Origin: Candidatus Eiseniibacteriota bacterium
GTDB lineage: Bacteria > Orphanbacterota > Orphanbacteria > Orphanbacterales > Orphanbacteraceae
Assembly: GCA_029262235.1 (NCBI GenBank)
Contig: JAJCZU010000002.1
Span: forward strand, 1,142,927-1,206,926
DNA length: 64,000 nt
Direction: 5' to 3'
The translations under genes and the position numbers were made by a program. The notes beneath the pieces are model-generated. The model ran no database searches, had not been told where the DNA came from, and saw only the letters and a list, made by a program, of their open reading frames with translations. Of this stretch, positions 1 to 35,560 are shown one piece after another (positions within the stretch are counted from its first letter, which is position 1; every line of letters begins with the position of its first letter).

Positions 1-1866
1 CGGCTTATCGACGAGCTGGATGCCCCGGCGCCCGAGGCAAAGGTCGAAACGAATTACCGCCTCATTGATTCCCTGCAGGACTTGAAAAAGTGCGCCGCGG
101 CGTGGAAGAAGAGCGGGCGGATTGCGCTATTCGTCATACCCGACTCCGCGAACCGCATTCGTACCGGTGTCCGCGGCATGGCGATCGCGGCCGCGCCGGG
201 CGTCGCGGAATACGTTCCGTTTTCACAGGGCGGAGGGGAGTCGCTCTTTCCCGAGGAGATTCTGTCCGTGATTGCTCCCGTCCTTGCCGACCGCAGGATC
301 AGGATCGTGATTCCGGGCGCGAAGGAGGCGATGTTCGCGCTTCAAAATGCCGGCATACCCATCGAAGGCCCGCTGTCGGATCCGGCCATCGCGTCGTACG
401 TTCTCGACCCGGGACAGCGGACGCACGCGATCGAGCATCTGAGCCAGGTTCACCTGAATCGCAGGCTGAAGCCACCGGAGGAGATCCTCGGGACCGGACG
501 CAACAAGAAAACGATCCAGGAACTGTGGCCGGACGAAGTGTATGCGTTCGCATGCGAACGTGCCGACTGCGCGCTGCAGCTCGGGGGCATTCTCAGCGAC
601 GAAATGGAAGCGGTGGAGGGCGAAGATCTCTACGAGAACATCGAGATTCCACTCCTCAAGGTGCTGCAGAAGATGGAGGGGGCGGGCGTTCGACTCGACC
701 TCGAGTTTCTCGCGGCCATGTCGAAGGAACTGCACGCCGAGATCGACTCGATCGAACAGAAGATCTACGAACTCGGCGGCGGAGAATTCAATGTCAATTC
801 GCCCCTGCAGCTCCAGAAGATTCTGTTCGAGGATCTGGGGCTGAAGCCGACCAAGAAGACGAAGACCGGCTACTCGACGGACAACGACGTGCTGCAGGAA
901 CTCGCGAAGGTGCATCCGCTTCCCGCGCTGATCCTCGAAAACCGTCAGCTCGTGAAGCTTTGCGGCACGTATATTGACGCGCTTCCGAAACTCGTCGACG
1001 AGGAAACGAACCACATTCATACGTCGTTCAATCAAACCGTAGCCGCGACGGGCCGGCTGTCGTCGAGCGACCCGAACCTGCAGAACATTCCGATTCGCAC
1101 CGACGTCGGACGCCGCATTCGCAAAGCCTTCCTGCCGCGCAGCGACGGCCATCGACTGATCTCCCTCGACTACTCGCAGGTTGAGCTTCGCCTGCTCGCG
1201 CATCTGTCGGAAGACGATCACCTGATCGAAGACTTCCGCACCGGAACGGACATCCATCGTCGAACGGCCGCCACGCTCTTCGGCATGGAAGAAAGCGAGG
1301 TTTCGGGCGAGATGCGTTCCCGTGCCAAAGCGGTGAACTTCGGAATCGTGTACGGCATGGGCGCATTCGGTCTCGCTACCCGCCTCGATATCGGGCGCAA
1401 GGAAGCCGAAGAGTTCATCCGAAATTACTTCGAAGCGTATCCCGGCGTGCAGGGTTTTCTCGATCGGACGATCGAAGAGGGACGCGAAAACGGGTACGTC
1501 GAAACCATGCTCCACAGGCGCCGGTACCTTCCCGATCTGAACAGCAAAAACGGCCGGATCCGGGCGTTTGCGGAGCGGACGGCCGTCAACACGCCGATCC
1601 AGGGCTCGGCCGCGGATCTGATCAAACTTGCCATGATTGCGATCGATGACGAACTTGAAAAGAAGGGCCTCGAGACGAAGATGATATTGCAGGTGCACGA
1701 TGAACTCGTATTCGACGCTCCTGTGGCAGAAGTGGAAGAGGTCACGGCACTGGCGAAGAAGCGTATGGAAGGCCAGATGGAGCTCAGAGTCCCGATCCTC
1801 GTCGACTCGGGATCCGGCAGCAACTGGCTCGAAGCGCACGGGATCGATCCCGGGGCGACCGCATGA
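1..1866 (+). CDS. polA: DNA polymerase I, 3' portion (5' end lies upstream of the window)
   Basis: Reading frame is open from base 1; family A polymerase motifs DYSQVELR (A), RxxAKAVNFGIVYG (B) and QVHDELVFD (C); the 3'-5' exonuclease-like region is present but its acidic motifs look degenerate. Confidence 0.9.
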   Translation, partial: RLIDELDAPAPEAKVETNYRLIDSLQDLKKCAAAWKKSGRIALFVIPDSANRIRTGVRGMAIAAAPGVAEYVPFSQGGGESLFPEEILSVIAPVLADRRIRIVIPGAKEAMFALQNAGIPIEGPLSDPAIASYVLDPGQRTHAIEHLSQVHLNRRLKPPEEILGTGRNKKTIQELWPDEVYAFACERADCALQLGGILSDEMEAVEGEDLYENIEIPLLKVLQKMEGAGVRLDLEFLAAMSKELHAEIDSIEQKIYELGGGEFNVNSPLQLQKILFEDLGLKPTKKTKTGYSTDNDVLQELAKVHPLPALILENRQLVKLCGTYIDALPKLVDEETNHIHTSFNQTVAATGRLSSSDPNLQNIPIRTDVGRRIRKAFLPRSDGHRLISLDYSQVELRLLAHLSEDDHLIEDFRTGTDIHRRTAATLFGMEESEVSGEMRSRAKAVNFGIVYGMGAFGLATRLDIGRKEAEEFIRNYFEAYPGVQGFLDRTIEEGRENGYVETMLHRRRYLPDLNSKNGRIRAFAERTAVNTPIQGSAADLIKLAMIAIDDELEKKGLETKMILQVHDELVFDAPVAEVEEVTALAKKRMEGQMELRVPILVDSGSGSNWLEAHGIDPGATA

Positions 1867-2465
1867 TCATCGGGATCACGGGCAATACCGGGAGCGGCAA
1901 GAGTACGCTGGCCCGCATGTTCGCGGAGTGGGGCGGTACGCTTGTCGACGCGGACGAAATCGGCCGCTCCGTCTGGCAGAACGACGCGGGTCTGCAGCGC
2001 GCGATCGTGGACACCTTCGGCGACTCCGTCCTGGGATCGGACGGTAAAGTCGATCGGCGGCAGCTCGGGCGCACGGTTTTTTCGTCCCGGGAGAATCTGG
2101 TGAAGCTCGACCGGCTTCTGGCCGAGCCGCTGCGGAGCGCCATCGAGCGCGCCCTCCGCGAAGCGGAGGAGAGGTCGCCCGGCCCCGTCGTTCTCGATGC
2201 GGCGCTTCTCTTCGATTGGGGTTATCAGAAACGCGTCGATGTGGTAGTTCTGATTCTGGCGCCGCCCGGTACGAGACGCGCGCGCATTCGCACCAGGGAT
2301 TCCCTCGACGAGCAGGGGGCGCGCGATCGGATCGACAGACAGAGCGATCTCGACGCACGAATAGAAGAAGCGGACCATGTCATCGATAACGACGGCACGC
2401 TCGACGATCTCGAGCAGAAGGCGCGTGCGGTCTGGGAATCGATCGGTGATCAGGATAAGGAGTGA
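1863..2465 (+). CDS. coaE: dephospho-CoA kinase
   Basis: N-terminal P-loop GITGNTGSGKST; about 200 aa; ATG overlaps the polA stop (ATGA). Confidence 0.85.
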   Translation: MIIGITGNTGSGKSTLARMFAEWGGTLVDADEIGRSVWQNDAGLQRAIVDTFGDSVLGSDGKVDRRQLGRTVFSSRENLVKLDRLLAEPLRSAIERALREAEERSPGPVVLDAALLFDWGYQKRVDVVVLILAPPGTRRARIRTRDSLDEQGARDRIDRQSDLDARIEEADHVIDNDGTLDDLEQKARAVWESIGDQDKE

Positions 2466-2470
2466 GGGGA

Positions 2471-3569
2471 ATGCCGGACGTCAGAGAAATCGAACAGGAA
2501 CTCGAGTCGAGCCGCACTCGCATTGACGAGCTCGAAGGTTATCTTTGACATTTCCAAACGCATCGCGCACATCGCGCAGCTAGAGGAAAAGATGACGGCC
2601 CAGGACTTCTGGGACCATCAGGCGAAAGCACAGGAAACCACGCGCGCACTCTCTTCGCAGAAGCGCATCGTCGATGAGTTCACGAAGGTGAAGACGGCGC
2701 ACGAGGAAACGGCGATCCTGCTCGAAATGGCGCAGGAAGAGTCGGACGAAGACACGATGCGCGAGGTCGAAAAGGGTCTGCGCCAGCTGACCGTGCTCGT
2801 CACCGATCTCGAAACGAAGAGTCTGCTCGGCGCGCCCGAAGATTCCGGGAATGCCATCATCAATATCAATCCCGGCGCCGGCGGAACGGAATCGCAGGAC
2901 TGGGCCCAGATGCTCCTTCGCATGTATCAGCGATGGGGCGAACGCCGCGGGTTCAAGCAGAACCTGATCGATATCTCCGCGGGCGACGAAGCGGGAATCA
3001 AAAGCGCCACCCTCGAAATGGAGGGTGATTACGCGTACGGATTTCTGCGCTCGGAAGCGGGCGTGCATCGCCTCGTTCGCATTTCGCCTTTCGACGCGGC
3101 GCATCGAAGACACACGTCTTTCGCGTCGGTCGCCGTCTTCCCCGAATCGGAAGAGATCGAAGAAGTGGAGATCCTCGATTCGGATCTCCGCGTCGACACG
3201 TTCCGATCGAGCGGGGCGGGCGGCCAGCACGTCAACAAGACCGATTCCGCGGTCCGCATCACGCACCTTTCGACGAACATCGTCGTCACGTGCCAGAGCG
3301 AGCGCTCCCAGCATCGAAATCGGGCGAACGCGATGAAAGTGCTGAAGGCACGTCTTCTGCAACAGCGCCTCGAGGAGGAAGCGCAGAAATCCGCGGAGCG
3401 CGAAGGGGAGAAGAAAGAGATCGCGTTCGGGAATCAGATCAGGTCGTACGTTTTCCAGCCGTACACGCTCGTGAAGGATCACCGGACCAATACGGAGGTC
3501 GGCAACGTGCAGGGTGTCATGGACGGCGATATTGAAGCATTCATAGAGGCGTACCTGCGAAGAAAGTAG
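2471..3569 (+). CDS. prfB: peptide chain release factor 2, expressed by programmed +1 frameshift (frame 0 2471..2545, +1 frame 2547..3569)
   Basis: ATG at 2471 encodes 25 codons (MPDVREIEQELESSRTRIDELEGYL) ending at an in-frame TGA inside CTT TGA C (2543-2549); the +1 frame continues DISKRIAH... and contains the RF2-type SPF and GGQ motifs. Confidence 0.9.
2534..2549 (+). promoter_or_regulatory. programmed +1 ribosomal frameshift site of prfB (internal SD-like GAAGG, then UAU CUU UGA C)
   Basis: Sequence gaaggttatctttgac read directly; it matches the classical RF2 autoregulatory slippery site CUU UGA C with an upstream SD-like element. Confidence 0.8.
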
Positions 3570-3633
3570 GCGCCGCGTTCCGTTTGACGCGCCCAATTCG
3601 TCTCCTTATATTGGGGCGACTACGGAGGAGATC

Positions 3634-5109
3634 ATGGCAGACGAAAAACAGTTGATCAAAGTGCGGTACGACAAGAGAGCGATGCTCGAAGAACTGGGCG
3701 TCAACCCGTATCCCACGAAGTACGACAGGGATACGATGGCGGCCGCCGTGCACGAAAACTTCGAGGAGTGGTCAGCGGAGGAACGTCTCGTTTCGATCGC
3801 CGGCCGTCTCATGACCGTTCGCAAAATGGGGAAAGCCTCGTTCGCGAATCTGAAGGACCGGTCGGGTACGATTCAGATCTACGTGACCACGGACAACGTC
3901 GGCGCGGACGCCTACACGATCTGGAAGCGGCTCGAGGGGGGCGATCTCGTCGGCGTACGCGGTATCCCGTTTCGCACACAGAAGGGCGAGATCTCGCTGC
4001 AGGTCAGGGAGTTCTCGGTGCTCGCGAAGTCCCTTCGCCCGCTGCCCGAAAAATGGCACGGTCTGAAGGACAAGGAAACCCGGTACAGGCAGCGCTACGT
4101 CGATCTCATCGTGAACGACGACGTGCGCGCCGTGTTCGAGAAGCGGGCGCTCATCGTGCGTGTCGTCAGGAACTATCTCGACGAGCGCGGGTTTCTCGAA
4201 GTAGAGACGCCGATCCTGCAGCCCCTGTACGGCGGCGCCTCGGCGCGGCCGTTTACGACGCATCACAACACTTTGGACATGAAGCTGTTCCTCAGGATCG
4301 CGGACGAGCTCTACCTGAAGCGTTTGATCGTCGGCGGATACGAAAAAGTGTACGAGATCGGAAAAGACTTTCGAAACGAGGGGATGGACAAGACGCACAA
4401 CCCCGAGTTCACGCAGCTCGAACTGTACGAGGCTTACGCCGACTACAACACCATGATGGAGCACGTGGAGAACATCATGCGTGCGATCGCCATGGCCCTG
4501 CACGGGAGCACGACGATTACGTTCCAGGGGCGCGAAAATGATCTCGGGAAGCCGTGGACACGCCTTTCCTTCGTCGACGCGCTCTCGGAAAAGGTCGGGA
4601 AGGACGTGCTCGCGCTTTCGAACGACGAGCTTCGGGCGGCGGCGAAAGAGCGCCACATCGAACTCCCGGACGAAGCGTCGAACGGCATGATCATGGCGGA
4701 ACTCTTCGACGTGCTCGTGGAACCGGGGATTCAGGACCCGACGTTCGTTCTCGATTTTCCGAAGGAGATATCGCCTCTCGCGAAAGAACGCCAAGGCCGC
4801 CCCGGTGTGGTGGAGCGGTTCGAACCGTATTTGTGCGGAATGGAGATCGGAAATGCGTTCTCGGAGCTGAACGACCCCGTGGAGCAGCGCAGGCGCTTCG
4901 AAGCGCAGCTCGAACTCCGGGGGCCCGAGAGCGAGGAAGCGCAGCAGCTGGACGAGGATTATCTCCGTGCGCTCGAATACGGCATGCCGCCGACGGGCGG
5001 GCTCGGGATCGGCATCGACCGGATCAGCGTGGTCTTCGCGGACCAGCCCTCGATCCGGGACGTGATCCTGTTCCCGCAGATGAGACCCGAGACCGCTCCC
5101 TCAAAGTAG
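3634..5109 (+). CDS. lysS: lysyl-tRNA synthetase (class II)
   Basis: 491 aa; N-terminal OB anticodon-binding region followed by class II catalytic core; conserved prfB-lysS gene order; GGAGGAG before the ATG. Confidence 0.9.
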   Translation: MADEKQLIKVRYDKRAMLEELGVNPYPTKYDRDTMAAAVHENFEEWSAEERLVSIAGRLMTVRKMGKASFANLKDRSGTIQIYVTTDNVGADAYTIWKRLEGGDLVGVRGIPFRTQKGEISLQVREFSVLAKSLRPLPEKWHGLKDKETRYRQRYVDLIVNDDVRAVFEKRALIVRVVRNYLDERGFLEVETPILQPLYGGASARPFTTHHNTLDMKLFLRIADELYLKRLIVGGYEKVYEIGKDFRNEGMDKTHNPEFTQLELYEAYADYNTMMEHVENIMRAIAMALHGSTTITFQGRENDLGKPWTRLSFVDALSEKVGKDVLALSNDELRAAAKERHIELPDEASNGMIMAELFDVLVEPGIQDPTFVLDFPKEISPLAKERQGRPGVVERFEPYLCGMEIGNAFSELNDPVEQRRRFEAQLELRGPESEEAQQLDEDYLRALEYGMPPTGGLGIGIDRISVVFADQPSIRDVILFPQMRPETAPSK

Positions 5110-5116
5110 GCGAAAC

Positions 5117-6352
5117 ATGGGCTACGAGTTCTTCATCGCGAAAAGGCACATCAAGTCGCCCAGCCGCTTCGGCTTCGTGCCGATCATTACGCTGATCTCG
5201 ATTCTCGGCGTCTTCGTCGGGGTCGCTTCGCTGATCGTCGTTCTTTCCGTCATGAACGGCTTCGAAACCGAGGTGAAGTCGAGGATCGTGGGCACACATG
5301 CCCATGTCATCCTGCTGAAGTTCGGGAACGAGCCGATCGAACCCGATGCCGCCCTGATGACGACCGTGCGCGAAACGCCCGGTGTTACCGCGAGCGCGCC
5401 GTTCGTCTATTCCAAGGCGATGATTCAGGTCGGCAAGGAGCAGGACGGGATCGTCATCAAAGGCGTCGATCCGGAACAGGAAGACGCCGTGTCGGATCTG
5501 CTGCGCCGCACGTCGCCGCCCGACGCACGCCTGCAGTGGGAGGACGGCGCCATGCCCCCTGTGCTGCTCGGTGAAGAGATCGCGCTGAACCTCGGCGCCA
5601 CGCTCGGCGAGACGATCGTGCTCGCATCGTTTCAGAACACGTCGCGCAACCCGTTCGGCGCCGTCCCGAAGATGCGTCGCTTCCGCGTGCAGGGGACGTT
5701 CGACTCGGGCATGTACGAATACAATTCGACTCTACTATTGATGCCGCTCCGCGCGGCGCAGGACTTCTTCGGCCTGGGCGACAACGTGACCGGCATCGCG
5801 ATCAATGTCGAAGACGCGTACGCCGCCCCTGAAATCGCCGCGCAGGTGGTCGCGCGCGTCGGCAGCCCGCCGTACAGGACGAACAACTGGATTCATTTGA
5901 ACCGCACGCTCTTTACGTGGATGGAAACGGAAAAACGGGTGATGTTCATCATCCTGGCTCTCGTGGTTCTCGTGGCCGCGTTCAACATCGCGAGCACGCT
6001 GATCATGGTCGTCATGGAGAAAACACGCGAGATCGGTGTTCTCAAATCGATGGGCGCCACGCTCCGCAGCATTCTGATCATTTTCGTCTTGGAGGGCGTG
6101 ACGATCGGAGGGATCGGCACGCTGCTCGGATGCATCGGGGGGTGGGGGACCTGTGTCCTGATCGATCGCTATCAGATCATTCCGCTTCCCTCGGACATCT
6201 ACTTCATCGATTCTCTCCCCGTGAGCCTCGAATGGACCGACGTGGCCCAGGTCGCGGTGGCGGCCATGGTGATCTGTCTCTTCGCGACTCTCTATCCCGC
6301 GTGGAAAGCCTCTCGTCTCGAGCCGATCGAGGCGATCCGGGTGGACGGCTGA
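5117..6352 (+). CDS. lipoprotein-release ABC transporter permease (LolC/LolE family, FtsX-like)
   Basis: 411 aa; N-terminal TM helix, large periplasmic loop and C-terminal TM bundle typical of FtsX/LolCE permeases; immediately followed by a LolD-like ATPase. Confidence 0.8.
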   Translation: MGYEFFIAKRHIKSPSRFGFVPIITLISILGVFVGVASLIVVLSVMNGFETEVKSRIVGTHAHVILLKFGNEPIEPDAALMTTVRETPGVTASAPFVYSKAMIQVGKEQDGIVIKGVDPEQEDAVSDLLRRTSPPDARLQWEDGAMPPVLLGEEIALNLGATLGETIVLASFQNTSRNPFGAVPKMRRFRVQGTFDSGMYEYNSTLLLMPLRAAQDFFGLGDNVTGIAINVEDAYAAPEIAAQVVARVGSPPYRTNNWIHLNRTLFTWMETEKRVMFIILALVVLVAAFNIASTLIMVVMEKTREIGVLKSMGATLRSILIIFVLEGVTIGGIGTLLGCIGGWGTCVLIDRYQIIPLPSDIYFIDSLPVSLEWTDVAQVAVAAMVICLFATLYPAWKASRLEPIEAIRVDG

Positions 6353-6353
6353 T

Positions 6354-7055
6354 ATGAGTTACATCGTCGAAACGAAAAACCTCAGCAAGTCGTACCGGAC
6401 GGGCGATCAGTCGCTCTCGGTGCTCGAAGACATCGACCTGCAGGTCAGTCAGGGAGAAATTCTGTCGATCGTGGGAACGTCCGGCGCCGGCAAGAGCACG
6501 CTGCTGCACGTGATCGGTACGCTCATCCGCCCGACGACGGGCGAGGTTCTGATCGACGGCCAGGATGTATTCAGACTCTCCGATCACAAGCTTTCGCGCT
6601 TTCGCAACGAACGCATCGGGTTCGTGTTTCAGTTTCACCATCTGCTCCCGGAGTTCAGCGCGGAAGAGAACATCATGCTTCCGCTTCTGATCGGGGGAGC
6701 GCGCGAAGGCGACGCACGGAAGCGGGCGCGCGAACTGCTGCACTCCGTGTCTCTCGAAGCGCGCGCATCGCATCATCCGTCCGAACTCTCCGGCGGCGAA
6801 CAGCAGCGTATCGCCGTAGCGCGTGCGCTTGCGACGAAACCCGCCGTGGTGCTGGCCGACGAACCGTCGGGCAATCTCGACGAAGACACGAGCGAAGAAC
6901 TTCACCAGTTGATATGGGACGTCCGGAGCGAAACCGGGCAGGCCTTCGTGATCGTTACCCATGACGCCCTCCTCGCCGACCGCGCCGACCGCAAGGTCGT
7001 GCTGCACGCGCACCGGCTCGCGACGGATCCGGGTCCCGTGAAAGTGGGCGCATGA
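6354..7055 (+). CDS. lolD: lipoprotein-release ABC transporter ATP-binding protein
   Basis: Walker A GTSGAGKST, ABC signature LSGGEQQR, Walker B VVLADEP. Confidence 0.85.
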   Translation: MSYIVETKNLSKSYRTGDQSLSVLEDIDLQVSQGEILSIVGTSGAGKSTLLHVIGTLIRPTTGEVLIDGQDVFRLSDHKLSRFRNERIGFVFQFHHLLPEFSAEENIMLPLLIGGAREGDARKRARELLHSVSLEARASHHPSELSGGEQQRIAVARALATKPAVVLADEPSGNLDEDTSEELHQLIWDVRSETGQAFVIVTHDALLADRADRKVVLHAHRLATDPGPVKVGA

Positions 7056-7657
7056 TGAAATGCCAGATCTGCTCCGAGCGCGAGGCCCGGGTTCACTACA
7101 CGGAGATGAAGGACGACGAAGTACGTACGCTGCGTCTTTGCGAACAGTGCGCCGAGGCACGCGGATTCACGAAGATGGAGAAGAAACCCGAATTCAGCCT
7201 GCCCGATCTCCTGGCCGGCATGGCCGAGGACAAATTCGCGGGGACGGAAACCGAAGCGGCCCCTCTCACGTGCGAGCGCTGCGGTCTCACGTACCCCGAA
7301 TTCAAGAAGACCGGGCGCCTCGGCTGCGGGGAGTGCTATGAAGCCTTTGCCGCCCCGCTCCTGCCGCTCCTGAAGCGGATTCACGGGAGCGAGAACCACG
7401 TGGGGAAAGTCCCGGCGGCCTCGCGGGAAACCGACCGGCGCCCCCCCCGGGAGGTCCCTCGCAAGGTCCCCGTGGAGCCTCCCGAGCCCGGGGAGTCCCG
7501 GGAGACGGATGAGGTCCGGGAAACGCAGGAAACCCGCATGGCGCGTCTGGAGGACCTCAGGCGCCAGCTCGACCGCTGTGTCGACGCGGAGGACTTCGAG
7601 CGCGCGGCGGCCATCAGGGACCGGATTCAGCGACTGGAGGAGTCCCGTGGTGCCTAG
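7052..7657 (+). CDS. mcsA: McsA-like protein (UvrB/UvrC-motif protein, putative arginine kinase activator)
   Basis: Two CxxC pairs (CQIC...CEQC and CERC...CGEC) plus a C-terminal UVR-like helix (EDFERAAAIRDRIQRLEE); ATG overlaps the lolD stop (ATGATGA); directly precedes mcsB. Confidence 0.7.
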   Translation: MMKCQICSEREARVHYTEMKDDEVRTLRLCEQCAEARGFTKMEKKPEFSLPDLLAGMAEDKFAGTETEAAPLTCERCGLTYPEFKKTGRLGCGECYEAFAAPLLPLLKRIHGSENHVGKVPAASRETDRRPPREVPRKVPVEPPEPGESRETDEVRETQETRMARLEDLRRQLDRCVDAEDFERAAAIRDRIQRLEESRGA

Positions 7658-8714
7658 AGCGCCCTGGCCCGAGCCCGACTGGATGTCCGGAGAAGGCCCG
7701 GAGTCCGTCACCGTTCTTTCGACGCGGATACGTCTCGCCCGCAATCTGACCGGCCATCCGTTCACTCATCGTGCGGAGGAAGAGGAGCGCGGGGAGATCC
7801 TCGAGGATGTCCGGGAAGCGGCCCGCGCGGCACGGTCACTCGCCACGCCGCGCATTCTCCGCCTCGACCGGACGTCGACCCTCGACCGGCAGTATCTCGT
7901 CGAACGTCATCTGGTCTCTCCCGACCTCGCCAACGCCCGCGGACCGCGCGCCGTTGCGGTGGGAAAAGGGGAGACTTTGAGCGTAATGATCAACGAAGAA
8001 GACCATTTGCGGATCCAGGGCCTCTTATCCGGGTTTCAACTAAGGAATGCCTGGAATCTCGTCGATAAATTGGACGAGGATTTGGGGACGAATCTGGACC
8101 TGGCGTTTTCCCCGAAATGGGGATACCTGACCGCCTGCCCGACGAATACGGGTACCGGTCTTCGCGCATCGGTCCTGATTCATCTCCCGGGGCTCGTTCT
8201 CACGAAGCAGATCGGCAAGGTACTGCGAGGCATCTCGCAGGTGGGCCTCGCGGTCCGCGGCATGTTCGGAGAGGGCACGGAAGTCATGGGGAACTTTTTC
8301 CAGATTTCCAACCAGACCACTCTGGGCCTCAGTGAGAACGAAGTGATCGAAAGTCTCGGTCGGGTGACCCGCCAGGTCATCGATCATGAACAGAGCGCTT
8401 CCGAGGTACTGCTCAAGAGCGCTCCTCATCAGATCGAGGACAAGGTGTTTCGCGCGTACGGGATTCTTCGGCACGGCCGCGTCATTTCTTCGCAGGAAGT
8501 CGTGAGCATGACTTCGGCATTGCGATTCGGATTCGGTCTCGGCTTTCTGCGGGACCGGCTCGACGCGCACCGCCTGAACCGTCTCATGATCGAGACACTC
8601 CCGGCGCATCTTCAGCGCGCGAACGGGACGAGGCTCGATCAGGCGGAACGGGATTACCGGCGCGCCGCATTCGTTCGCAGCCTGCTCGGCGAAGAGACGG
8701 ACGCAGAGGCGTAA
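7647..8714 (+). CDS. mcsB: protein arginine kinase (ATP:guanido phosphotransferase family)
   Basis: Phosphagen-kinase-like catalytic domain; GTG start at 7647 or 7650 preceded by GGAGGAG (7636-7642) and overlapping the mcsA stop; ATG at 7683 is an alternative. The ORF-track start at 7509 is rejected because it overlaps mcsA. Confidence 0.8.
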   Translation: MVPRAPWPEPDWMSGEGPESVTVLSTRIRLARNLTGHPFTHRAEEEERGEILEDVREAARAARSLATPRILRLDRTSTLDRQYLVERHLVSPDLANARGPRAVAVGKGETLSVMINEEDHLRIQGLLSGFQLRNAWNLVDKLDEDLGTNLDLAFSPKWGYLTACPTNTGTGLRASVLIHLPGLVLTKQIGKVLRGISQVGLAVRGMFGEGTEVMGNFFQISNQTTLGLSENEVIESLGRVTRQVIDHEQSASEVLLKSAPHQIEDKVFRAYGILRHGRVISSQEVVSMTSALRFGFGLGFLRDRLDAHRLNRLMIETLPAHLQRANGTRLDQAERDYRRAAFVRSLLGEETDAEA

Positions 8715-8716
8715 CC

Positions 8717-8745
8717 TTGTGCCTGCCGTGGGGAGTGGGTATATT
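8717..8745 (+). promoter_or_regulatory. candidate sigma70-type promoter upstream of clpC (-35 TTGTGC, 17-bp spacer, -10 TATATT)
   Basis: Hexamers and spacing read directly in the mcsB-clpC intergenic region; no experimental support. Confidence 0.3.
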
Positions 8746-8788
8746 ATGGGCAACCTTTTCCTGAGAAGCAGCCGGAGGGGCTAACGGA

Positions 8789-11272
8789 ATGCACGATCGA
8801 TTTACAGAACGCGTCCGCAAGGTCATGTATCTTGCGCGTGAAGAAGCAGGCCGCTTGCAGCACGACTACATCGGAACAGAACATCTGCTTCTCGGCATCG
8901 TTCGCGAAGGAGAGGGGATCGCCGCCACGGTGCTCCATAATCTCGGCCTGGATCTCGATCAGATCCGACAGGCGGTCGAGAACATGGTATCGGGGAGCGG
9001 GGGAACGCTCACGATCGGCGAGATTCCGTTTACGCCGCGCGCCAAGCGTGTGCTCGAACTCGCGGTGGAAGAAGCGCGGCTGCTGAGCCATAACTACGTC
9101 GGCACGGAACATCTGCTGCTCGGCCTCATTCGCGAAGGCGAAGGGGTTGCGGCGCGCGTGCTGATCGACCTCGGCGCGGACAAGAAGAAAGTACGCGAGG
9201 AGACGCTCAAGCTTCTCGGCGGCCATCCCGTCGGCAACACGCAGGCGCAGGCTCCGCAGAAAAGTGAAACGCCCGCACTCGACCAGTTCGGGCGCGATCT
9301 CACGACGCTCGCGCGCGAAGGAAAACTCGATCCCGTGATCGGACGCAACGGCGAAATCGAACGCGTGATCCAGGTTCTCTGCCGTCGCAAGAAAAACAAT
9401 CCGGCCCTGATCGGCGAACCGGGCGTCGGCAAGACCGCCATCGCCGAAGGGCTCGCCGAGCGGATCGCTTCGAACCACGTTCCGCATCTTCTGATGAACA
9501 AACGCCTCGTGACGCTCGACCTCGCGTCGATCGTCGCCGGCACGAAATATCGCGGCCAGTTCGAAGAGCGGCTCAAGGCCGTCATGAATGAAATCCGCGA
9601 ATCCGACAACGTCATCATCTTCATCGACGAACTGCACACGATCGTCGGGGCCGGCGGCGCGGAAGGCGCCATCGACGCTTCGAACATGCTGAAGCCGGCG
9701 CTCGCGCGCGGCGAACTGCAGTGCATCGGCGCGACCACGCTCGACGAATACCGCAAGCACATCGAAAAGGACGGCGCGCTCGAGCGTCGCTTCCAGCCGA
9801 TCACGATCAACCCGCCGACCGTGCAGGAGACCATCCAGATCATCCGCGGACTGCGTGACAAGTACGAAGCGCATCATCGCGCCGAGATCACGGACGATGC
9901 GATCACGGCCGCCGTCAAGCTGTCTGATCGCTTCATCAACGACCGCTTCCTGCCCGACAAGGCAATCGACATTATCGACGAAGCGGGTTCGCGCGCGCGC
10001 CTCAGCGTGAGCGAGATCCCGAAGGACCTGAACGACATCGAGCGCAAGCTGAACCAGGTCACGCAGGAAAAAGAAGCGGCGATCTGTTCGCAGGAATTCG
10101 AAAAAGCCGCCGCGCTCCGCGACCAGGAGAAGGATCTCCGGAACCAGCTCCTCAATTTCCAGAAGGACTGGGACGTGCAGAAGAAAGAGGACCGCGCCGT
10201 CGTCGATGTCGAAGACGTCGCGCAGGTCATCTCCGCGATTACGGGGATCCCGGTGCAGAAGCTCGAACGGACGGAGAGCGAAAAGCTTCTCCATATGGAA
10301 GACGGACTGCAGACGAAAGTCATCGGTCAGGCCGAAGCGGTCACGGCGATTTCGAAAGCGATTCGCAGAAACCGCGCCGGACTGCAGAATCCGAACCGCC
10401 CGATCGGGTCGTTCATCTTCCTCGGACCGACCGGTGTCGGGAAAACGGAACTCGCGCGCGTCATGTCCGAATTCCTGTTCGACGACCGCGATTCGCTGAT
10501 CCGGATCGACATGTCCGAATACATGGAAAAATTTGCCGTGAGCCGTCTCGTCGGAGCGCCTCCGGGATACGTGGGATATGAAGAGGGCGGCCAGCTGACG
10601 GAGAAGGTCCGCAGAAAGCCGTATTCGATCGTGCTGCTCGACGAGATCGAGAAAGCGCACCCGGACGTCTTCAATCTGCTGCTGCAGGTGCTCGAAGACG
10701 GCCAGCTGACGGACAGCTTCGGCCGCCGCGTCAATTTCCGGAACACGGTCATCATCATGACCTCGAACATCGGGGCCCGCCAGGTCAAGCAGGGAGGCTC
10801 GCTCGGCTTCCAGAAGGCCGGCGAGGACGTCAAGCAGGGGCTTCAGAGCGGCAAGTTCATGGATGAGCTGAAGAAAACGTTCAATCCCGAGTTCTTGAAC
10901 CGCGTGGACGAAACCATTATCTTCCGTTCTCTGGTACGCGAGGATCTCGAGAAGATCGTGAACATCCTCTTCTCGGAAGTCGAAGGGCGGCTGATCGAGC
11001 ACGATTTCACCGTCGAGCTCTCGGATGAGGCGAAGGAGCTGATCGTCGACAAGGGATACGACCCGGCCTACGGGGCGCGCCCGCTTCGGAAGACGATCCG
11101 TCAGCTCGTGGAAGATCCGCTTTCCGAGGAGATCCTCGGCGGCAATATCAAGCCGGGACAGAAGATCATCATCGGCCGCAAGGGCGACGTGCTCACGTTC
11201 AAGAAGCAGAAGGTGGCCAAGCCCGCGAAGAAGGCGGTCGCCGCGCCGGCATCAGACGAAGAAGACTCGTAG
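8789..11272 (+). CDS. clpC: ATP-dependent Clp protease ATP-binding subunit ClpC
   Basis: 827 aa; duplicated N-terminal Clp repeat domains, two AAA+ modules with Walker A GEPGVGKT and [11 protein letters not shown]-like middle region. Confidence 0.9.
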
Positions 11273-11303
11273 AAGCGAAGCTTCTCGCACTACATACGAA
11301 CGT

Positions 11304-13583
11304 ATGAGAATTTGTGGGGACGTAATTCTCAAGATCATTGCGGGGGGGAAGTCCTTTCTTCTCCCCCTTCTTTTTGCCATGCATATGCTCGCGCCGGCTC
11401 TCGCAGGCGCGCAGACCGTGCAGTCGATCGACGTCAGAGGCGCGACGCGGATCAAGGCCGCATCGGTCGTCAAGACGTTCGGGATCCAGCCGGGTGACCG
11501 GTACTCGGGCGACGAAATCGCCGAGGGGATCCGCAACCTCTACGCTACCCGCCAGTTCCGGACCGTGGCAATCGAGCGCCGGGCGCTCGACGGCGGCGAC
11601 TTCGCTCTCACGATCGAGATCGAAGAGCGCACCGTGCTCGGAGACTTCTCCTACCAGGGCAACGACAAACTCAAAAAAGACGACCTGAAAGAGGAAACGA
11701 TCCTGCGTCGCGGGCTCGTGCTCTCGGACCGCTCTCTCTTTCGCGAAAAAGTCCGTATCCAGAATCTCTACAAGGAGAAAGGGTACAGGAGCGCCACTGT
11801 AGAGTGGGAGCTTGCTGAGGCCGATACCGGCGGGCGCCAGTCCGTCGTCTATCGGATCGACGAAGGCAACAAGGTCAAGGTGAAGAAGGTCGTTGTGCAG
11901 GGCGCGGACAAGCTCGGCGAGGGCAAAGTCCGCGGCGAGATGAAGACGAAGCCAGACAACTGGTATCGAAGCGGCGACTTCAAGGAAGAGGAATTCGAAG
12001 GGGACAAGACGCTGATCGAGCGTCTCTATGCGAAGAACGGTTATCTGGATGCCCGCGTCGATTCGACGACGGTCGTGGTGGCGAAGAACGGCAAGGACCT
12101 GACGGTCAAGGTGTTCGTGACCGAGGGCGAGCAGTTCCGCATGGGCAGCGTCAGGTTCGAGGGGAATGAACAGTTCGAAACCGACGTGCTCCGGCGCACG
12201 ATGAGACTGCGCCCCGGCGATGTATTCGATCAGGAAAAGTACGAGTTCTCGATCGGCGAACTCTACGGCGTGTATTCCGAAGAGGGATACATCTTCACGA
12301 ACATCATCCCCGAGCGAACGCCCAAGGGTCAGGTCATCGATATCGCTTTCTATATTACCGAGGGCGATCCCGCGCGAATCGATCGCGTCAACATCGCGGG
12401 CAACAACAAGACGAAAGAGCGCACGATCAGGCGCGAACTCGTCGTGGCGCCGGGCGATCTCTTCAAGCGCTCCCGGATCATCCGGTCGCAGCGTGAACTC
12501 ATGCAGCTCGGATTCTTCCAGGACATTCGCTTCGACTATCAGCCCGTGCGCGGCACCGACCGGATCGACATCACGTTCGATGTCGTGGAGCGGACGACCG
12601 GCGAAGCGAGCATGGGGGCGGGATTCAGCTCGCTCAATGGAGCCACCGGGTTCCTGCGACTGTCGCAGGGGAACCTGTTCGGCGGCGGGGAACGCGTGAA
12701 CCTCACGTGGGAATTCGGCGACTTCCAGCAGATCGAACTTTCGTACACCGAACCCTGGCTTTTCGATACACCGACGTCCGCCGGCTTCGACATCACCTCG
12801 GTGCGGCGCAACTGGGACTCGTACGTCGAGAAGCGAAAGGGGGGCGGGGTGCGCCTCGGCCGCCGCCTGCCGTGGCTCGATTATTCGCGAGTGGACGCCG
12901 CGTATCGGATCGAAGAACGCACGATCGACCCGGACGAGGACGCGAGTGAATCCGTGCAGAACGCTGCGGGAACGCGCACGCTTTCGTCGACACGACTTTC
13001 GTTCACGCGCAATTCCACCGACCGGCTGTTCCATCCGACGAGCGGCTCGGTCAACATTCTCGTAGGCGAATGGGCGGGCGGGATTCTCGCCGGCTCGACC
13101 GACTACCAGCAGTACGAAGTGGAAACGCGGTGGTATTACCCGTCGTTCTGGAAATTCTTCCTGGGGCTGCGCGCACGGATCGGTGTCGTGGACGGACTCG
13201 ACAAACCATCCACCGTACCGCTTTACAAACGCTATCGCCTGGGCGGCACCGGAGTCTGGGGGCTGCGGGGATACGACGACCGCGCGGTCGTACCGGACGG
13301 AAACTCGTTCGACTTCGGCGGGCGCACCATGTTGATTCTGTCGGCTGAATACAAATTCCCGATCGCGGATCCGTCGATTTTCGGCCTGTTCTTCTTCGAC
13401 GCCGGCAATTCATGGAACAGCTTCGAAGAGATTCGGCCTAACGATTTGAAGCGCGGCGCCGGATTCGGGGTCCGTTTCCAGATCCCGATGCTGGGCCAGA
13501 TGGGCTTCGATATGGGATACGGACTCGACAAGGACGGCGGAGGAGCCTGGGAACCCCACTTCCAGCTCGGCTCGCTCTTCTAG
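11304..13583 (+). CDS. bamA: outer membrane protein assembly factor BamA (Omp85 family)
   Basis: 759 aa; N-terminal signal-like segment, POTRA-repeat region, C-terminal beta-barrel ending in aromatic F; the exact start is uncertain. Confidence 0.85.
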   Translation: MRICGDVILKIIAGGKSFLLPLLFAMHMLAPALAGAQTVQSIDVRGATRIKAASVVKTFGIQPGDRYSGDEIAEGIRNLYATRQFRTVAIERRALDGGDFALTIEIEERTVLGDFSYQGNDKLKKDDLKEETILRRGLVLSDRSLFREKVRIQNLYKEKGYRSATVEWELAEADTGGRQSVVYRIDEGNKVKVKKVVVQGADKLGEGKVRGEMKTKPDNWYRSGDFKEEEFEGDKTLIERLYAKNGYLDARVDSTTVVVAKNGKDLTVKVFVTEGEQFRMGSVRFEGNEQFETDVLRRTMRLRPGDVFDQEKYEFSIGELYGVYSEEGYIFTNIIPERTPKGQVIDIAFYITEGDPARIDRVNIAGNNKTKERTIRRELVVAPGDLFKRSRIIRSQRELMQLGFFQDIRFDYQPVRGTDRIDITFDVVERTTGEASMGAGFSSLNGATGFLRLSQGNLFGGGERVNLTWEFGDFQQIELSYTEPWLFDTPTSAGFDITSVRRNWDSYVEKRKGGGVRLGRRLPWLDYSRVDAAYRIEERTIDPDEDASESVQNAAGTRTLSSTRLSFTRNSTDRLFHPTSGSVNILVGEWAGGILAGSTDYQQYEVETRWYYPSFWKFFLGLRARIGVVDGLDKPSTVPLYKRYRLGGTGVWGLRGYDDRAVVPDGNSFDFGGRTMLILSAEYKFPIADPSIFGLFFFDAGNSWNSFEEIRPNDLKRGAGFGVRFQIPMLGQMGFDMGYGLDKDGGGAWEPHFQLGSLF

Positions 13584-13727
13584 CGACGCCGCTTGAACTT
13601 ACCTGCCCGCATTGCCACAATGGAGTGCCTGTCAGGGAACCCGGCGCGATCAGCCCGTGTTTCCCCCGCAGCACATCATGCATGCCCGTGAGAAACGCAT
13701 TCTCATGCCAATTAGGAGGCGTAGTAT

Positions 13728-14252
13728 ATGAAATGGGGAATGATCGGAATCGCCCTGACGGCTCTTCTGCTCTCGACCGGAGACGCGCTCGCTGAGTCAA
13801 AAATCGGGTATATCGATTCGGCGCGCATTTTCGCCGAGTACAAAGGGACCGAGGACGCACAGCGCACCTTCGACTCCGAGGTGGAGCAGTGGGAGCAGCA
13901 GGCGCAGGGCCTCAAGACGCAGCTCGACTCGCTCGAAGGCGAGTATCAGCGCCAGAGCCTGATGCTCTCGGAGACGCGCAAGAGAGAGCGCCAGCAGGAG
14001 ATCCTGACGAAGCGCCAGGAGTACGAGACCTTCGTACAGTCCGTCTGGGGCCCGCAGGGCAAGCTCGCCGTGAAGAATTCGGAACTGGTCCAGCCGATCG
14101 TGGAACTGATCAACGTCATTCTGCAGCGTCTGGGCGTGGAAGAGGACTATGCGATCGTGTTCGACGCCTCGCTGGGGGGGATCGTCTACGCAGCCGAAGG
14201 AATCGATCTGACGGACAGAATCATCGAGGAGCTCAATCAAGGCGTGCAATAG
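13728..14252 (+). CDS. skp: periplasmic chaperone Skp/OmpH
   Basis: 174 aa; signal peptide followed by a coiled-coil-rich sequence; conserved position between bamA and lpxD; AGGAGG before the ATG. Confidence 0.8.
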   Translation: MKWGMIGIALTALLLSTGDALAESKIGYIDSARIFAEYKGTEDAQRTFDSEVEQWEQQAQGLKTQLDSLEGEYQRQSLMLSETRKRERQQEILTKRQEYETFVQSVWGPQGKLAVKNSELVQPIVELINVILQRLGVEEDYAIVFDASLGGIVYAAEGIDLTDRIIEELNQGVQ

Positions 14253-14366
14253 TTTCTTCGGCGGGGAAATGCCTCGCCAACTCATGCAGGAATAACAAGT
14301 TACGGCCTGAAATGGGGATAATTGCCTTGACGTTCCCGTTCACCGGTCAGTAGGATCAATGCCGCC

Positions 14367-15419
14367 ATGAAGCTATCTGAAATCGTGGAGCGCGTCGGAG
14401 GAAAACTCCGCGGCGACGGTTCTATCGAGATCACCGGTGTGGCGGGAATTCGCGAAGCGCAGGAGGGCGATATCACCTTTATTGCGGACTCGCGTTATGA
14501 AGCTTTTCTGGCTTCGACCCGCGCCTCGGCAGTGATCCTCGCGAAAAACGGGGACCTCGGTGATATCGACAAAGCCGTTGTCATCGTGAACGAGAATCCA
14601 TACGTCGCGTTCCTGAGAGCCATTGAAATCTTCTCGCCCCGCGATCACGACGATCCGCGGGGAGTGCATCCGACTGCCGTGATCGGCGAGGGCGTCGAAC
14701 TCGGCGAACGGATCACGATCGGCGCGCACGTCGTCGTGGAAGACCACTGCGCGATCGGTGCCGGAACGCGGATCCTTGCGGGAAGCTATATAGGATTCCG
14801 ATCGCGGGTCGGCGCCGACTGCATGATCTTTCCGAACGTAACGGTGCGCGAAGATTCGGCGATCGGCGACCGCGTGATCATTCACAGCGGCACGGTTGTG
14901 GGGTCGGACGGTTTCGGCTTCGCCACGACCGGTGGAAAGCACACGAAGATTCCGCAGATCGGGCGCGTCGTGATCGATGACGATGTCGAGATCGGTTCGA
15001 ACGTTTCGATCGATCGCGCGACAACCGGAATCACGCACATACACAGCGGCACGAAGATCGACAACCTCGTGCAGATCGCGCACAACGTCGTGATCGGCGA
15101 GAACTCGCTCATCGTTGCGCAGGTCGGGATTTCCGGCAGCACGGAAATCGGAAGAAACGTGACAATCGCCGGACAGGCCGGAGTCATCGGCCACATCACG
15201 ATCGGGGACAACGTACAGGTTGCAGCGCAGTCGGGGGTCGTCAAGTCGGTCCCGGCGAATACACAGGTGAGCGGCTTCCCCGCGAGAGAGCACTCTGTCA
15301 GCCGGCGCATCTGGGCGGCCATTGCGAAGCTGCCGGACCTCGTGAAGACGATCAAACGCCTCTCGAAGCGGGTCGATGAGCTCGAAAAGCAGCTCGACTC
15401 CAAATCGATCTCCCAATAA
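14367..15419 (+). CDS. lpxD: UDP-3-O-acylglucosamine N-acyltransferase
   Basis: 350 aa; left-handed beta-helix hexapeptide repeats with an LpxD-type N-terminal domain. Confidence 0.9.
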
Positions 15420-15439
15420 TTCAATAAGGGTTTCACCAC

Positions 15440-16762: not shown

Positions 16763-16770
16763 AAAGCAAC

Positions 16771-17565
16771 ATGAGCAGCGAACCCAAGTTGGCAGAATCC
16801 CTGATACACCCCACCGCAATCGTGGAAGAAGGGGCGGAGATCGGGAAGAACGTCCGGATCGGGCCGCATTCCTGGATCCGTGAGAACGTCGTCATCGGAG
16901 ACGACTGTGTAATCGGCGCGAACGTCGTCATCGAAGGATGGACGAGCATCGGCCGCGGATGCACGGTTTATCACTCGGCCGTCGTCGGAGCCCCCCCGCA
17001 GGATCTGAAGTACCGGGGCGACAGAAGCTACGTCGAAATCGGCGAGCACAACGTCATCCGCGAGTTCGTCACGATCAACCTCGCGACCTCGCCCGAAGGC
17101 GTCACGCGAATCGGCGACCACAATCTGCTGATGGCATATGTCCACGTGGCACACGAGTGCGAGATCGGGAATCACACGATCATCGCCAACGCCGTGAATC
17201 TGGCCGGCCACGTAACAGTCGAAGACTACGCGACGATCGGGGGCGTCTCACCCGTCCACCAGTTCGTGCGCATCGGAGCACACAGCTTCATCGGAGGCGG
17301 CTCGCGCGTCGCGAAGGACGTACCGCCTTTCGTTCTCGCAGCCGGCAATCCGCTTCGCGTCGGCGGCATCAACGTCGTCGGCCTCACGAGGCGCGGTTTC
17401 GATTCCGACGTCAAGAGTCACCTCATTCGAGCCTACAAAATCCTGTTTCGCAGTGACAGGAACACGTCGCAGGCAATTGCAGCGATTCGCGCCGAGATCC
17501 CGATGACCCCCGAGGTCGAGCGCTTCGTGCAGTTCATCGAGTCTTCGGAACGGGGCATCATCTAA
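16771..17565 (+). CDS. lpxA: acyl-ACP--UDP-N-acetylglucosamine O-acyltransferase
   Basis: 264 aa hexapeptide-repeat acyltransferase in the canonical lpxD-fabZ-lpxA order. Confidence 0.9.
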   Translation: MSSEPKLAESLIHPTAIVEEGAEIGKNVRIGPHSWIRENVVIGDDCVIGANVVIEGWTSIGRGCTVYHSAVVGAPPQDLKYRGDRSYVEIGEHNVIREFVTINLATSPEGVTRIGDHNLLMAYVHVAHECEIGNHTIIANAVNLAGHVTVEDYATIGGVSPVHQFVRIGAHSFIGGGSRVAKDVPPFVLAAGNPLRVGGINVVGLTRRGFDSDVKSHLIRAYKILFRSDRNTSQAIAAIRAEIPMTPEVERFVQFIESSERGII

Positions 17566-17586
17566 ACCGGAGCTTCGGTTCATCTC

Positions 17587-35553: not shown

Positions 35554-35560
35554 TCGGTCG

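What the first reader, a model, noticed from the sequence alone, without database searches (positions are those of the whole stretch)
2471..3569. Conserved programmed +1 frameshift in prfB
Frame 0 from ATG 2471 terminates after 25 codons at UGA within CUU UGA C, preceded by an SD-like GAAGG; the RF2 body is in the +1 frame. This is the classical autoregulatory frameshift. The ORF track alone would mis-annotate the gene as starting at TTG 2523.
Basis: partly seen in the sequence, partly recalled or inferred. Interest (0 to 1): 0.45.

Follow-up and report, generated by a model that had tools for sequence, protein, structure and literature searches.

The report
Classical prfB +1 frameshift, weak SD
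This is the textbook self-regulating +1 ribosomal frameshift in the release factor 2 gene (prfB), found in about two-thirds of bacteria and already annotated in a 98%-identical public genome, so it is real but ordinary.

Summary
ATG 2471 opens a 25-codon frame that ends at TGA 2546-2548 inside TAT CTT TGA C. The rest of RF2 (340 codons, to TAG 3567-3569) lies in the +1 frame.

- **Product.** The joined 365-aa protein is a full-length RF2: TIGR00020 507.6 bits, profile positions 2-353, with SPF and GGQ motifs. It aligns with solved B. subtilis and E. coli RF2 straight across the junction.
- **Conservation.** CTT TGA sits at the homologous position in 153 of 165 assessable loci, the window and E. 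coli among them.
- **Leader.** A profile built from relatives' leader peptides hits only this frame in the window.
- **Start.** ATG 2471 has a strong SD (AAGGAG). TTG 2523 has none.
- **Assembly.** Two other assemblies are identical across the site.
- **Prior annotation.** A 98%-identical NCBI MAG protein is already annotated as the joined 365-aa product.

One correction: the "SD-like GAAGG" is no better than chance. Its anti-SD duplex is -3.8 kcal/mol, against a median of -9.3 in relatives, and 49% of coding 15-mers here do as well. In this lineage the stimulator has eroded through synonymous changes (GAGGGG, then GAAGGG, then GAAGGT/C). SD-degenerate prfB sites are already published for many clades.

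Verdict: interpretation supported, already known, low interest.

The parts
2457..2462 (+). Initiation Shine-Dalgarno AAGGAG, 8 nt upstream of ATG 2471; it abuts the coaE stop codon
   Evidence: Sequence. Anti-SD duplex -11.0 kcal/mol, among the strongest of 45 starts in the window.
2471..2545 (+). prfB frame-0 leader: 25 sense codons, MPDVREIEQELESSRTRIDELEGYL, the N-terminus of RF2
   Evidence: Translation. Aligns to residues 3-25 of solved RF2. An HMM of 74 relatives' leaders hits only this frame among 1261 six-frame segments, E 3.4e-5. It extends the TIGR00020 match from profile position 12 to position 2.
2534..2539 (+). Position of the internal SD-like stimulator, here degenerate: GAAGGT (consensus AGGGGG/GGAGGT)
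   Evidence: Duplex with GAUCACCUCCUUA is -3.8 kcal/mol against a median of -9.3 in 152 other loci. Only 4 of the 152 are as weak. Background coding 15-mers reach this value 49% of the time.
2540..2542 (+). TAT (Tyr): the E-site codon when the ribosome pauses at the shift site, identical to E. coli
   Evidence: Sequence. TAT is the commonest codon at this position in the surveyed loci, 46 of 153. Its E-site role is inferred from E. coli work.
2543..2546 (+). Slippery sequence CTT_T: P-site Leu codon CTT plus the first base of the stop codon
   Evidence: CTT precedes the stop in all 153 frameshift-bearing loci. CTT is a minor Leu codon here, 13%.
2546..2549 (+). Premature RF2-specific stop TGA plus 3' C (weak TGA-C context)
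   Evidence: Sequence. All 153 surveyed sites use TGA, and 134 have TGAC.
2547..3569 (+). prfB body in the +1 frame: 340 codons from GAC plus TAG stop. PCRF and RF-1 domains; SPF at 3084-3092; GGQ at 3219-3227
   Evidence: Translation. Pfam PF03462 and PF00472. TIGR00020. Motif coordinates.
1863..2465 (+). Context: coaE (dephospho-CoA kinase), immediately upstream
   Evidence: TIGR00152, 134 bits. The same neighbour is present in relatives L166-L168, L171 and L172.
3634..5109 (+). Context: lysS (lysine--tRNA ligase), immediately downstream as in the E. coli prfB-lysS operon
   Evidence: NF001756, 683 bits. E. coli record shows prfB followed by lysS.

Best explanation
Window 2471-3569 is prfB, encoding release factor 2, and it is expressed through the classical programmed +1 ribosomal frameshift.

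Translation starts at ATG 2471, which has a strong SD (AAGGAG). After 25 codons the ribosome holds Leu-tRNA on CUU in the P site, with UGA-C in the A site. Only RF2 reads UGA, and UGA-C is a poor termination context.

- When RF2 is plentiful, it terminates there and releases a 25-residue peptide.
- When RF2 is scarce, the ribosome pauses and the Leu-tRNA re-pairs one base forward (CUU to UUU). GAC is then read, and translation continues in the +1 frame to give the 365-aa RF2.

This makes a negative feedback loop on RF2 level.

What is shown here is the sequence anatomy, homology across the junction, conservation of the site, and the start-site evidence. The slip itself and the feedback are inferred from E. 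coli and B. subtilis work.

The one local peculiarity is the upstream SD-like stimulator. In this lineage it is eroded (GAAGGT, -3.8 kcal/mol), so the shift probably relies mainly on the slippery codon, the weak stop context and the UAU E-site codon. I put the core claim at about 0.95 and the claim that the SD contributes little at about 0.6.
For: - **Anatomy.**
- **Full-length RF2.** The joined product matches TIGR00020 at 507.6 bits (cut-off 370) over profile positions 2-353. The TTG-2523 product reaches only positions 12-353 at 499.3 bits. PCRF and RF-1 domains and the SPF and GGQ motifs are present.
- **Homology across the junction.** Residues 4-365 align without a gap to solved RF2 of B. 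subtilis (E 2.5e-129) and E. coli. The junction reads GYLD, as in E. coli.
- **E. coli comparison.** E. coli prfB is annotated 'programmed frameshift', is also 1099 nt long and is followed by lysS.
- **Conservation.** 153 of 165 assessable loci (the window and E. coli included) carry CTT TGA at the homologous position. All use TGA, and 134 have TGAC.
- **Leader peptide.** The leader HMM hits only this frame, E 3.4e-5, with the next best at 1.4.
- **Independent assemblies.** Two Logan assemblies (SRR15505512 and SRR15505513) are identical across the site.
- **Prior annotation.** A 98%-identical NCBI protein of 365 aa comes from a 1099-nt joined CDS with the same site.
- **Literature.** 64% of 12,753 genomes have the motif (PMC12421855). 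SD-less sites still frameshift (PMC10798248).
Against: There is no direct expression evidence: no proteomics or ribosome profiling for this uncultured organism. The internal SD-like element, which strongly stimulates the shift in E. coli, is no better than background here, so efficiency could be low. The genome is GC-rich (62%) and TGA is the stop of 26 of 46 long ORFs. That profile is statistically associated with loss of the motif (PMC12421855), yet the motif is retained here.
Confidence: 0.95

Rival explanations
1. The same frameshift, but GAAGGU still works as an SD-type stimulator as in E. coli. AGGU would pair with ACCU of the 16S tail 3 nt upstream of CUU.
For: A 4-bp AGGU:ACCU pairing is possible, in the same register as the CGAGGT/AGAGGT-NNN-CTT subclass seen in 12 surveyed loci. 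GGT is a rare Gly codon here (9%), so keeping the U could reflect selection for pairing. The organism does use SDs at initiation.
Against: The -3.8 kcal/mol duplex is about the background level for coding 15-mers (median -3.7). The 88%-identical relative has GAAGGC, which loses the U pair, at -3.3. Moving from the more distant to the closest relatives, the changes GAGGGG to GAAGGG to GAAGGT/C are all synonymous and all weaken pairing.
Confidence: 0.3
2. There is no frameshift. RF2 is made from an internal start (TTG 2523 or ATG 2592) in the body frame, and the 2471-2548 ORF is a separate small upstream ORF or noise.
For: The body frame is open from 2466 and contains TTG 2523 and ATG 2592. Automatic gene callers choose these starts.
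Against: TTG 2523 has no SD (-2.7 kcal/mol). The frame-0 leader is homologous to the RF2 N-terminal helix. The truncated products miss profile positions 2-11 or 2-31. The exact CTT TGA C heptamer at the homologous codon in 134 of 165 assessable loci would be left unexplained.
Confidence: 0.02
3. The frame break is an assembly or sequencing indel, or the gene is a pseudogene.
For: Single-base frame breaks in metagenome assemblies are often errors.
Against: Two other per-run assemblies are identical over the site. Relatives at 66-98% identity from different projects have the same break at the same codon. Both frames are otherwise intact, with all catalytic motifs present. The break coincides with the canonical motif.
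Confidence: 0.01

Closest known systems
E. coli prfB programmed +1 frameshift (RF2 autoregulation; Craigen and Caskey 1986, recalled from memory; summarised in PMC12421855)
   Same: Both have a 25-codon leader with TGA as codon 26. Both have the sequence TAT CTT TGA C and the junction peptide GYL|D. Gene length is 1099 nt in both, and lysS lies immediately downstream in both.
   Different: The internal SD is AGGGGG in E. coli (-10.7 kcal/mol) and GAAGGT here (-3.8). The upstream neighbour is recJ in E. coli and coaE here. The proteins are about 45% identical.
SD-degenerate prfB frameshift sites: Winogradskyella psychrotolerans and many clades of Planctomycetota, Firmicutes_A/B and Cyanobacteria (Naeem et al. 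2024, PMC10798248)
   Same: CTT TGA C is retained while the upstream SD-like element has decayed. On that paper's scale, a pairing energy weaker than -4 kcal/mol falls in the 'no SD' class.
   Different: This is a different lineage: an uncultured group whose public relatives are labelled Gemmatimonadetes or Candidatus Eisenbacteria. The decay can be followed here as stepwise synonymous changes among relatives of 66-98% identity. My energies come from ViennaRNA duplexfold rather than free_scan, so the two scales are only roughly comparable.
NCBI protein P0001, 'MAG: peptide chain release factor 2 [Gemmatimonadetes bacterium]', GCA_013002425.1
   Same: It is 98% identical and 365 aa long. It has the identical 25-residue leader and an identical site, GAA GGT TAT CTT TGA C. 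Its CDS spans 1099 nt, so it is already annotated as the frameshifted product.
   Different: There are a few amino-acid substitutions, and it is a different assembly.

Membership tests
prfB programmed +1 ribosomal frameshift (RF2 autoregulation) | The gene encodes release factor 2, not RF1 or RF-H | tested here: met
   TIGR00020 prfB scores 507.6 bits, above its cut-off of 370. The RF1 models score 274-278 bits, below their cut-offs. The SPF and GGQ motifs are present.
prfB programmed +1 ribosomal frameshift (RF2 autoregulation) | A premature in-frame stop early in the ORF that RF2 can read (TGA) | tested here: met
   TGA is codon 26, at 2546-2548.
prfB programmed +1 ribosomal frameshift (RF2 autoregulation) | Slippery CTT_T immediately before and overlapping the stop | tested here: met
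   CTTT lies at 2543-2546, as in all 153 frameshift-bearing loci surveyed.
prfB programmed +1 ribosomal frameshift (RF2 autoregulation) | The remainder of RF2 is in the +1 frame, with homology continuous across the junction | tested here: met
   The alignment to solved RF2 is ungapped over residues 4-365. The profile is covered over positions 2-353 only when the two frames are joined. The leader HMM gives E 3.4e-5.
prfB programmed +1 ribosomal frameshift (RF2 autoregulation) | Weak termination context (C after TGA) | tested here: met
   C is at 2549. TGAC occurs at 134 of the 153 sites.
prfB programmed +1 ribosomal frameshift (RF2 autoregulation) | Internal SD-like sequence 3 nt upstream of CTT that pairs with the anti-SD. 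This is a stimulator rather than a strictly defining feature, since it is documented as absent in many clades that keep the frameshift. | tested here: inconclusive
   GAAGGT gives -3.8 kcal/mol, which is about the background level for coding 15-mers. A 4-bp AGGU:ACCU pairing in the right register remains possible. PMC10798248 shows that sites without an SD still function.
prfB programmed +1 ribosomal frameshift (RF2 autoregulation) | Translation really starts at the frame-0 ATG | tested here: met
   This is computational only. AAGGAG lies 8 nt upstream (-11.0 kcal/mol), whereas TTG 2523 has no SD (-2.7).
prfB programmed +1 ribosomal frameshift (RF2 autoregulation) | Frameshifting occurs in vivo and its efficiency falls as RF2 rises | not testable with these tools
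   This needs a reporter assay, proteomics or ribosome profiling. It is inferred from E. coli and B. subtilis studies (PMC12421855).

The most novel reading that the evidence does not exclude
In this uncultured lineage, which has high GC and heavy TGA use, the SD stimulator of the prfB frameshift has been eroded step by step through synonymous changes (GAGGGG, then GAAGGG, then GAAGGT/C). Meanwhile CTT TGA C is kept, and the organism still uses SDs for initiation. This could be a caught-in-the-act intermediate. It might be a retuning of the RF2 set-point, or an early stage of the loss of autoregulation that is statistically linked to high TGA usage. The alternative is neutral drift of a dispensable element.
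Probability: 0.25. Interest if true: 0.25.

Novelty: already known. Interest (0 to 1): 0.1.

Why it matters
The practical value is for annotation. The correct prfB product here is the 365-aa joined protein (2471..2545 joined to 2547..3566). It is not the 348-aa ORF from TTG 2523 or the 325-aa call from ATG 2592 that automatic callers produce.

[quoted passage not shown] It also adds a small data point to the published observation that the SD stimulator is dispensable in many clades. It opens no new question.

Tried and rejected
1. **Apparent loss of the frameshift in relatives.** The annotated relatives P0005 and P0008 read ...DELRGIFD..., which looked like loss of the frameshift by a 1-nt deletion. 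The DNA (L171) shows the normal GAG GGG TAT CTT TGA C. The annotated join is simply placed four codons too early. Rejected.
2. **A stimulatory RNA structure in place of the SD.**
   - The upstream 60 nt fold no better than shuffles (z = 0.14).
   - The downstream 82 nt fold well in this one sequence (z = -2.76).
   - RNAalifold on seven relatives found no conserved downstream helix. It found only a weak hairpin (-6.4 kcal/mol) pairing UCGAAG with CUUUGA. Only one of its pairs shows a compensatory change. It would also lie inside the ribosome's mRNA channel at the moment of the shift. Not supported.
3. **Rfam.** No family matched anywhere in the window at gathering thresholds.
4. **tRNA genes.** There are none in the window, so the slipping tRNA-Leu could not be examined.
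5. **Closer relatives by collection scans.** Pattern-based scans of genome and metagenome contigs returned nothing above 58% full-length identity. The word-indexed protein search did find relatives at 98%, 88% and 63-75%.
6. **Exact look-up of the TTG-2523 product.** It is not on record.
7. **Transcriptional slippage.** Not plausible, because the longest homopolymer at the site is TTT.
8. **Stop-codon read-through.** It would give a 42-residue tail in frame 0 that is not part of the RF2 alignment, whose continuation from residue 26 lies in the +1 frame.

Full report
**Observation.**

- ATG 2471 opens a frame that reads MPDVREIEQELESSRTRIDELEGYL and stops at TGA 2546-2548.
- The local sequence is GAA GGT TAT CTT TGA C.
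- From base 2547 the +1 frame reads DISKRIAHIAQLEEKM... for 340 codons, ending at TAG 3567-3569.
- The mechanical ORF list gives the body as 2523..3569 starting at TTG, so an ORF track alone would indeed mis-start the gene.
- The 10-mer TATCTTTGAC occurs once in the window and in none of 100 shuffles.

**What the gene is.**

The two frames joined give a 365-aa protein.
- It matches NCBIfam TIGR00020 (prfB) at 507.6 bits, above the cut-off of 370, over profile positions 2-353. RF1 models fall below their cut-offs.
- Pfam finds the PCRF and RF-1 domains.
- The RF2 tripeptide SPF (3084-3092) and the catalytic GGQ (3219-3227) are present.
- Against solved structures, residues 4-365 align without a gap to B. 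subtilis RF2 (E 2.5e-129) and to E. coli RF2.
- The alignment runs straight through the frame junction, which reads GYL|D exactly as in E. coli.
- The product from TTG 2523 covers only profile positions 12-353 (499.3 bits). The product from ATG 2592 covers only positions 32-353.

**Is the frame-0 leader really coding?**

I built an HMM from the last 22 leader residues of 74 related loci (73 relatives plus E. coli). I searched it against all 1261 six-frame stop-to-stop segments of at least 20 aa in the window. The only significant hit is the 2459-2545 frame, at E 3.4e-5. The next best hit is at E 1.4.

ATG 2471 is preceded by AAGGAG at 2457-2462. [quoted passage not shown] TTG 2523 has nothing (-2.7).

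**Conservation.**

E. coli prfB is annotated 'programmed frameshift', is also 1099 nt long and is followed by lysS, as here.

I surveyed the genome and metagenome loci that encode relatives, the closer relatives found through the protein search, E. coli and the window itself.
- 153 of 165 assessable loci carry CTT followed by a stop at the homologous position.
- All 153 use TGA, and 134 have TGAC.
- The 12 without it have the body frame open 72-216 nt upstream of the junction, so they are in-frame genes.

This agrees with published surveys. The motif was found in 64% of 12,753 genomes, with CTTTGA nearly invariant (PMC12421855).

**Not an artefact.**

Two per-run Logan assemblies (SRR15505512 and SRR15505513) cover the site and are identical to the window. 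Relatives at 98, 88, 75, 72, 71 and 66% protein identity, from different projects, have the same break at the same codon. The same polA-coaE-prfB-lysS-lolCE-lolD gene order recurs in the four of them with enough flanking sequence (L167, L168, L171, L172).

The 98%-identical NCBI protein is labelled 'MAG: peptide chain release factor 2 [Gemmatimonadetes bacterium]', from GCA_013002425.1. It is 365 aa long from a 1099-nt CDS, so the frameshift has already been annotated in this lineage.

**The one correction: the internal SD.**

Its best duplex with the 16S tail GAUCACCUCCUUA is -3.8 kcal/mol, essentially four pairs (AGGU:ACCU).
- The median for the other 152 frameshift sites is -9.3, and E. coli gives -10.7.
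- Only 4 of the 152 are as weak, and two of those are this organism's nearest relatives.
- Among about 20,000 coding 15-mers of the window, 49% pair at least as well as -3.8. Only 4% reach -9.3.

So the element is not distinguishable from chance.

Within the lineage the hexamer changes stepwise with relatedness. It is GAGGGG in relatives of 66-71% identity (-8.2), GAAGGG at 72-75% (-4.6), and GAAGGC or GAAGGT at 88-100% (-3.3 and -3.8). Every variant encodes Glu-Gly, so the changes are synonymous and each weakens pairing.

The organism does use SDs at initiation. Of the putative starts, 38% pair at -7 kcal/mol or better, against 17% of background (Mann-Whitney p = 2e-4).

This is a known kind of variation. 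Naeem et al. 2024 report loss of the prfB SD in many clades. They also show experimentally that an SD-less site still frameshifts, at about 7% in F. johnsoniae (PMC10798248).

**Mechanism.**

The following are shown here:
- the start site;
- the 25-codon leader;
- CUU_U GA C with a UAU codon before it;
- the +1 body frame;
- homology across the junction;
- conservation of the site.

The steps below are inferred from E. coli and B. subtilis work (PMC12421855).
1. With CUU in the P site and UGA-C in the A site, RF2 competes with a +1 slip of Leu-tRNA from CUU to UUU.
2. High RF2 terminates translation after 25 residues.
3. Low RF2 lets the ribosome slip, read GAC and make full-length RF2.

That gives negative feedback on RF2 level. 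Here the SD contribution is probably small, so the set-point may be lower than in E. coli. This cannot be judged without an assay.

**Checks that led nowhere.**

- There is no Rfam match and no tRNA gene in the window.
- No RNA structure conserved among relatives could substitute for the SD.
- An apparent in-frame 'GIFD' junction in two annotated relatives turned out to be a misplaced annotation join.

**Context.**

The window has 62% GC, and TGA ends 26 of 46 long ORFs. That profile is typical of genomes that have lost the motif (PMC12421855), yet the motif is retained here.

The rest of the window encodes ordinary housekeeping and envelope genes of a diderm bacterium. These include McsB-like and ClpC proteins, BamA, Skp, LpxD, an LpxC-FabZ fusion, LpxA, LpxB and BshC.

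**Verdict.**

The feature is the textbook prfB frameshift. It is already annotated in a near-identical public genome, and its only peculiarity, a degenerate SD stimulator, is itself a published phenomenon. It is already known and of low interest.

Noticed in passing
L171:3001-4102 (NCBI GCA_043809585.1; proteins P0005 and P0008): Two annotated 'Candidatus Eisenbacteria' RF2 proteins read ...DELRGIFD... at the junction. The DNA of L171 (encoding P0005) is the normal GAG GGG TAT CTT TGA C, which should give ...DELEGYLD. The annotated +1 join is therefore placed four codons too early, putting wrong residues in the deposited protein (P0008's DNA was not fetched).
   Followed up: yes
L164:1740-2393 (= window 2592-3245); proteins P0002, P0003, P0007: Automatic gene callers truncate or mis-start this prfB and its relatives. 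They give 325-326 aa from an internal ATG, or 352 aa from an upstream ATG in the +1 frame. Many database 'RF2' entries for this lineage therefore lack the true N-terminus.
   Followed up: yes
window 82-7055; L167, L168, L171, L172: The gene order polA-coaE-prfB-lysS-lolCE-lolD is conserved among relatives of 66-75% RF2 identity. polA and coaE overlap by 4 nt (ATGA at 1863-1866).
   Followed up: partly
window 2549-2630: The 82 nt just downstream of the shift site fold unusually well for their composition (-26.2 kcal/mol, z = -2.76, 2 of 200 shuffles as good). The helices are not conserved in seven relatives.
   Followed up: partly
window 2532-2548: UCGAAG (2532-2537) can pair with CUUUGA (2543-2548) as a 6-bp hairpin with a 5-nt loop. 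In this lineage the GAG-to-GAA change turns a G-U pair into an A-U pair. The hairpin is very weak and only one of its pairs shows a compensatory change, so it is probably incidental.
   Followed up: partly
window 3584-3612: A sigma-70-like match, TTGACG-17 nt-TATATT (10 of 12), lies in the 64-nt prfB-lysS spacer. One match was found where 0.5 is expected by chance, so it is not significant alone. It hints that lysS may have its own promoter.
   Followed up: no
window 7963-7982: The only other CTTTGA inside the 20 annotated + strand genes checked (82-34206) is GAAAAGGGGAGACTTTGAGC in the McsB-like gene (7509-8714), preceded by a G-rich SD-like run. In that gene's frame it reads ACT TTG AGC with no stop, so it is a chance look-alike and not a second frameshift site.
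   Followed up: yes
window 20580-22445(-), 23106-25169(-), 30273-30866(-), 31226-33109(-), 34534-35778(-), 35789-36649(+): Six sizeable ORFs (197-687 aa) have no Pfam match at E <= 1e-6. They lie between a lipid A cluster and glycosyltransferase and bacillithiol genes, and were not examined further.
   Followed up: no
window 7509-20356 and 25753-29855: Housekeeping context of a diderm bacterium. It holds an McsB-like guanido kinase with ClpC, BamA, Skp/OmpH, LpxD, an LpxC-FabZ fusion (15440-16762), LpxA, a GFO/IDH/MocA-family oxidoreductase, LpxB, AMMECR1, a SAM hydroxide adenosyltransferase-family protein, BshC and a GT4 glycosyltransferase.
   Followed up: partly
window 2580-3596 (-): A 338-aa ORF runs antisense to almost the whole of prfB. 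This is typical of GC-rich coding sequence and there is no evidence that it is a gene.
   Followed up: no
whole window; The source lineage is thinly sampled. Pattern-based scans of GTDB species representatives and JGI metagenomes gave at most 58% RF2 identity. The few closer public proteins are labelled inconsistently, as Gemmatimonadetes (98%) or Candidatus Eisenbacteria (63-67%).
   Followed up: partly
window 52817-52853: A short tandem repeat: 4.1 copies of the 9-nt unit GCGCATGGC, 92% matching, inside the ORF 51984-54452.
   Followed up: no
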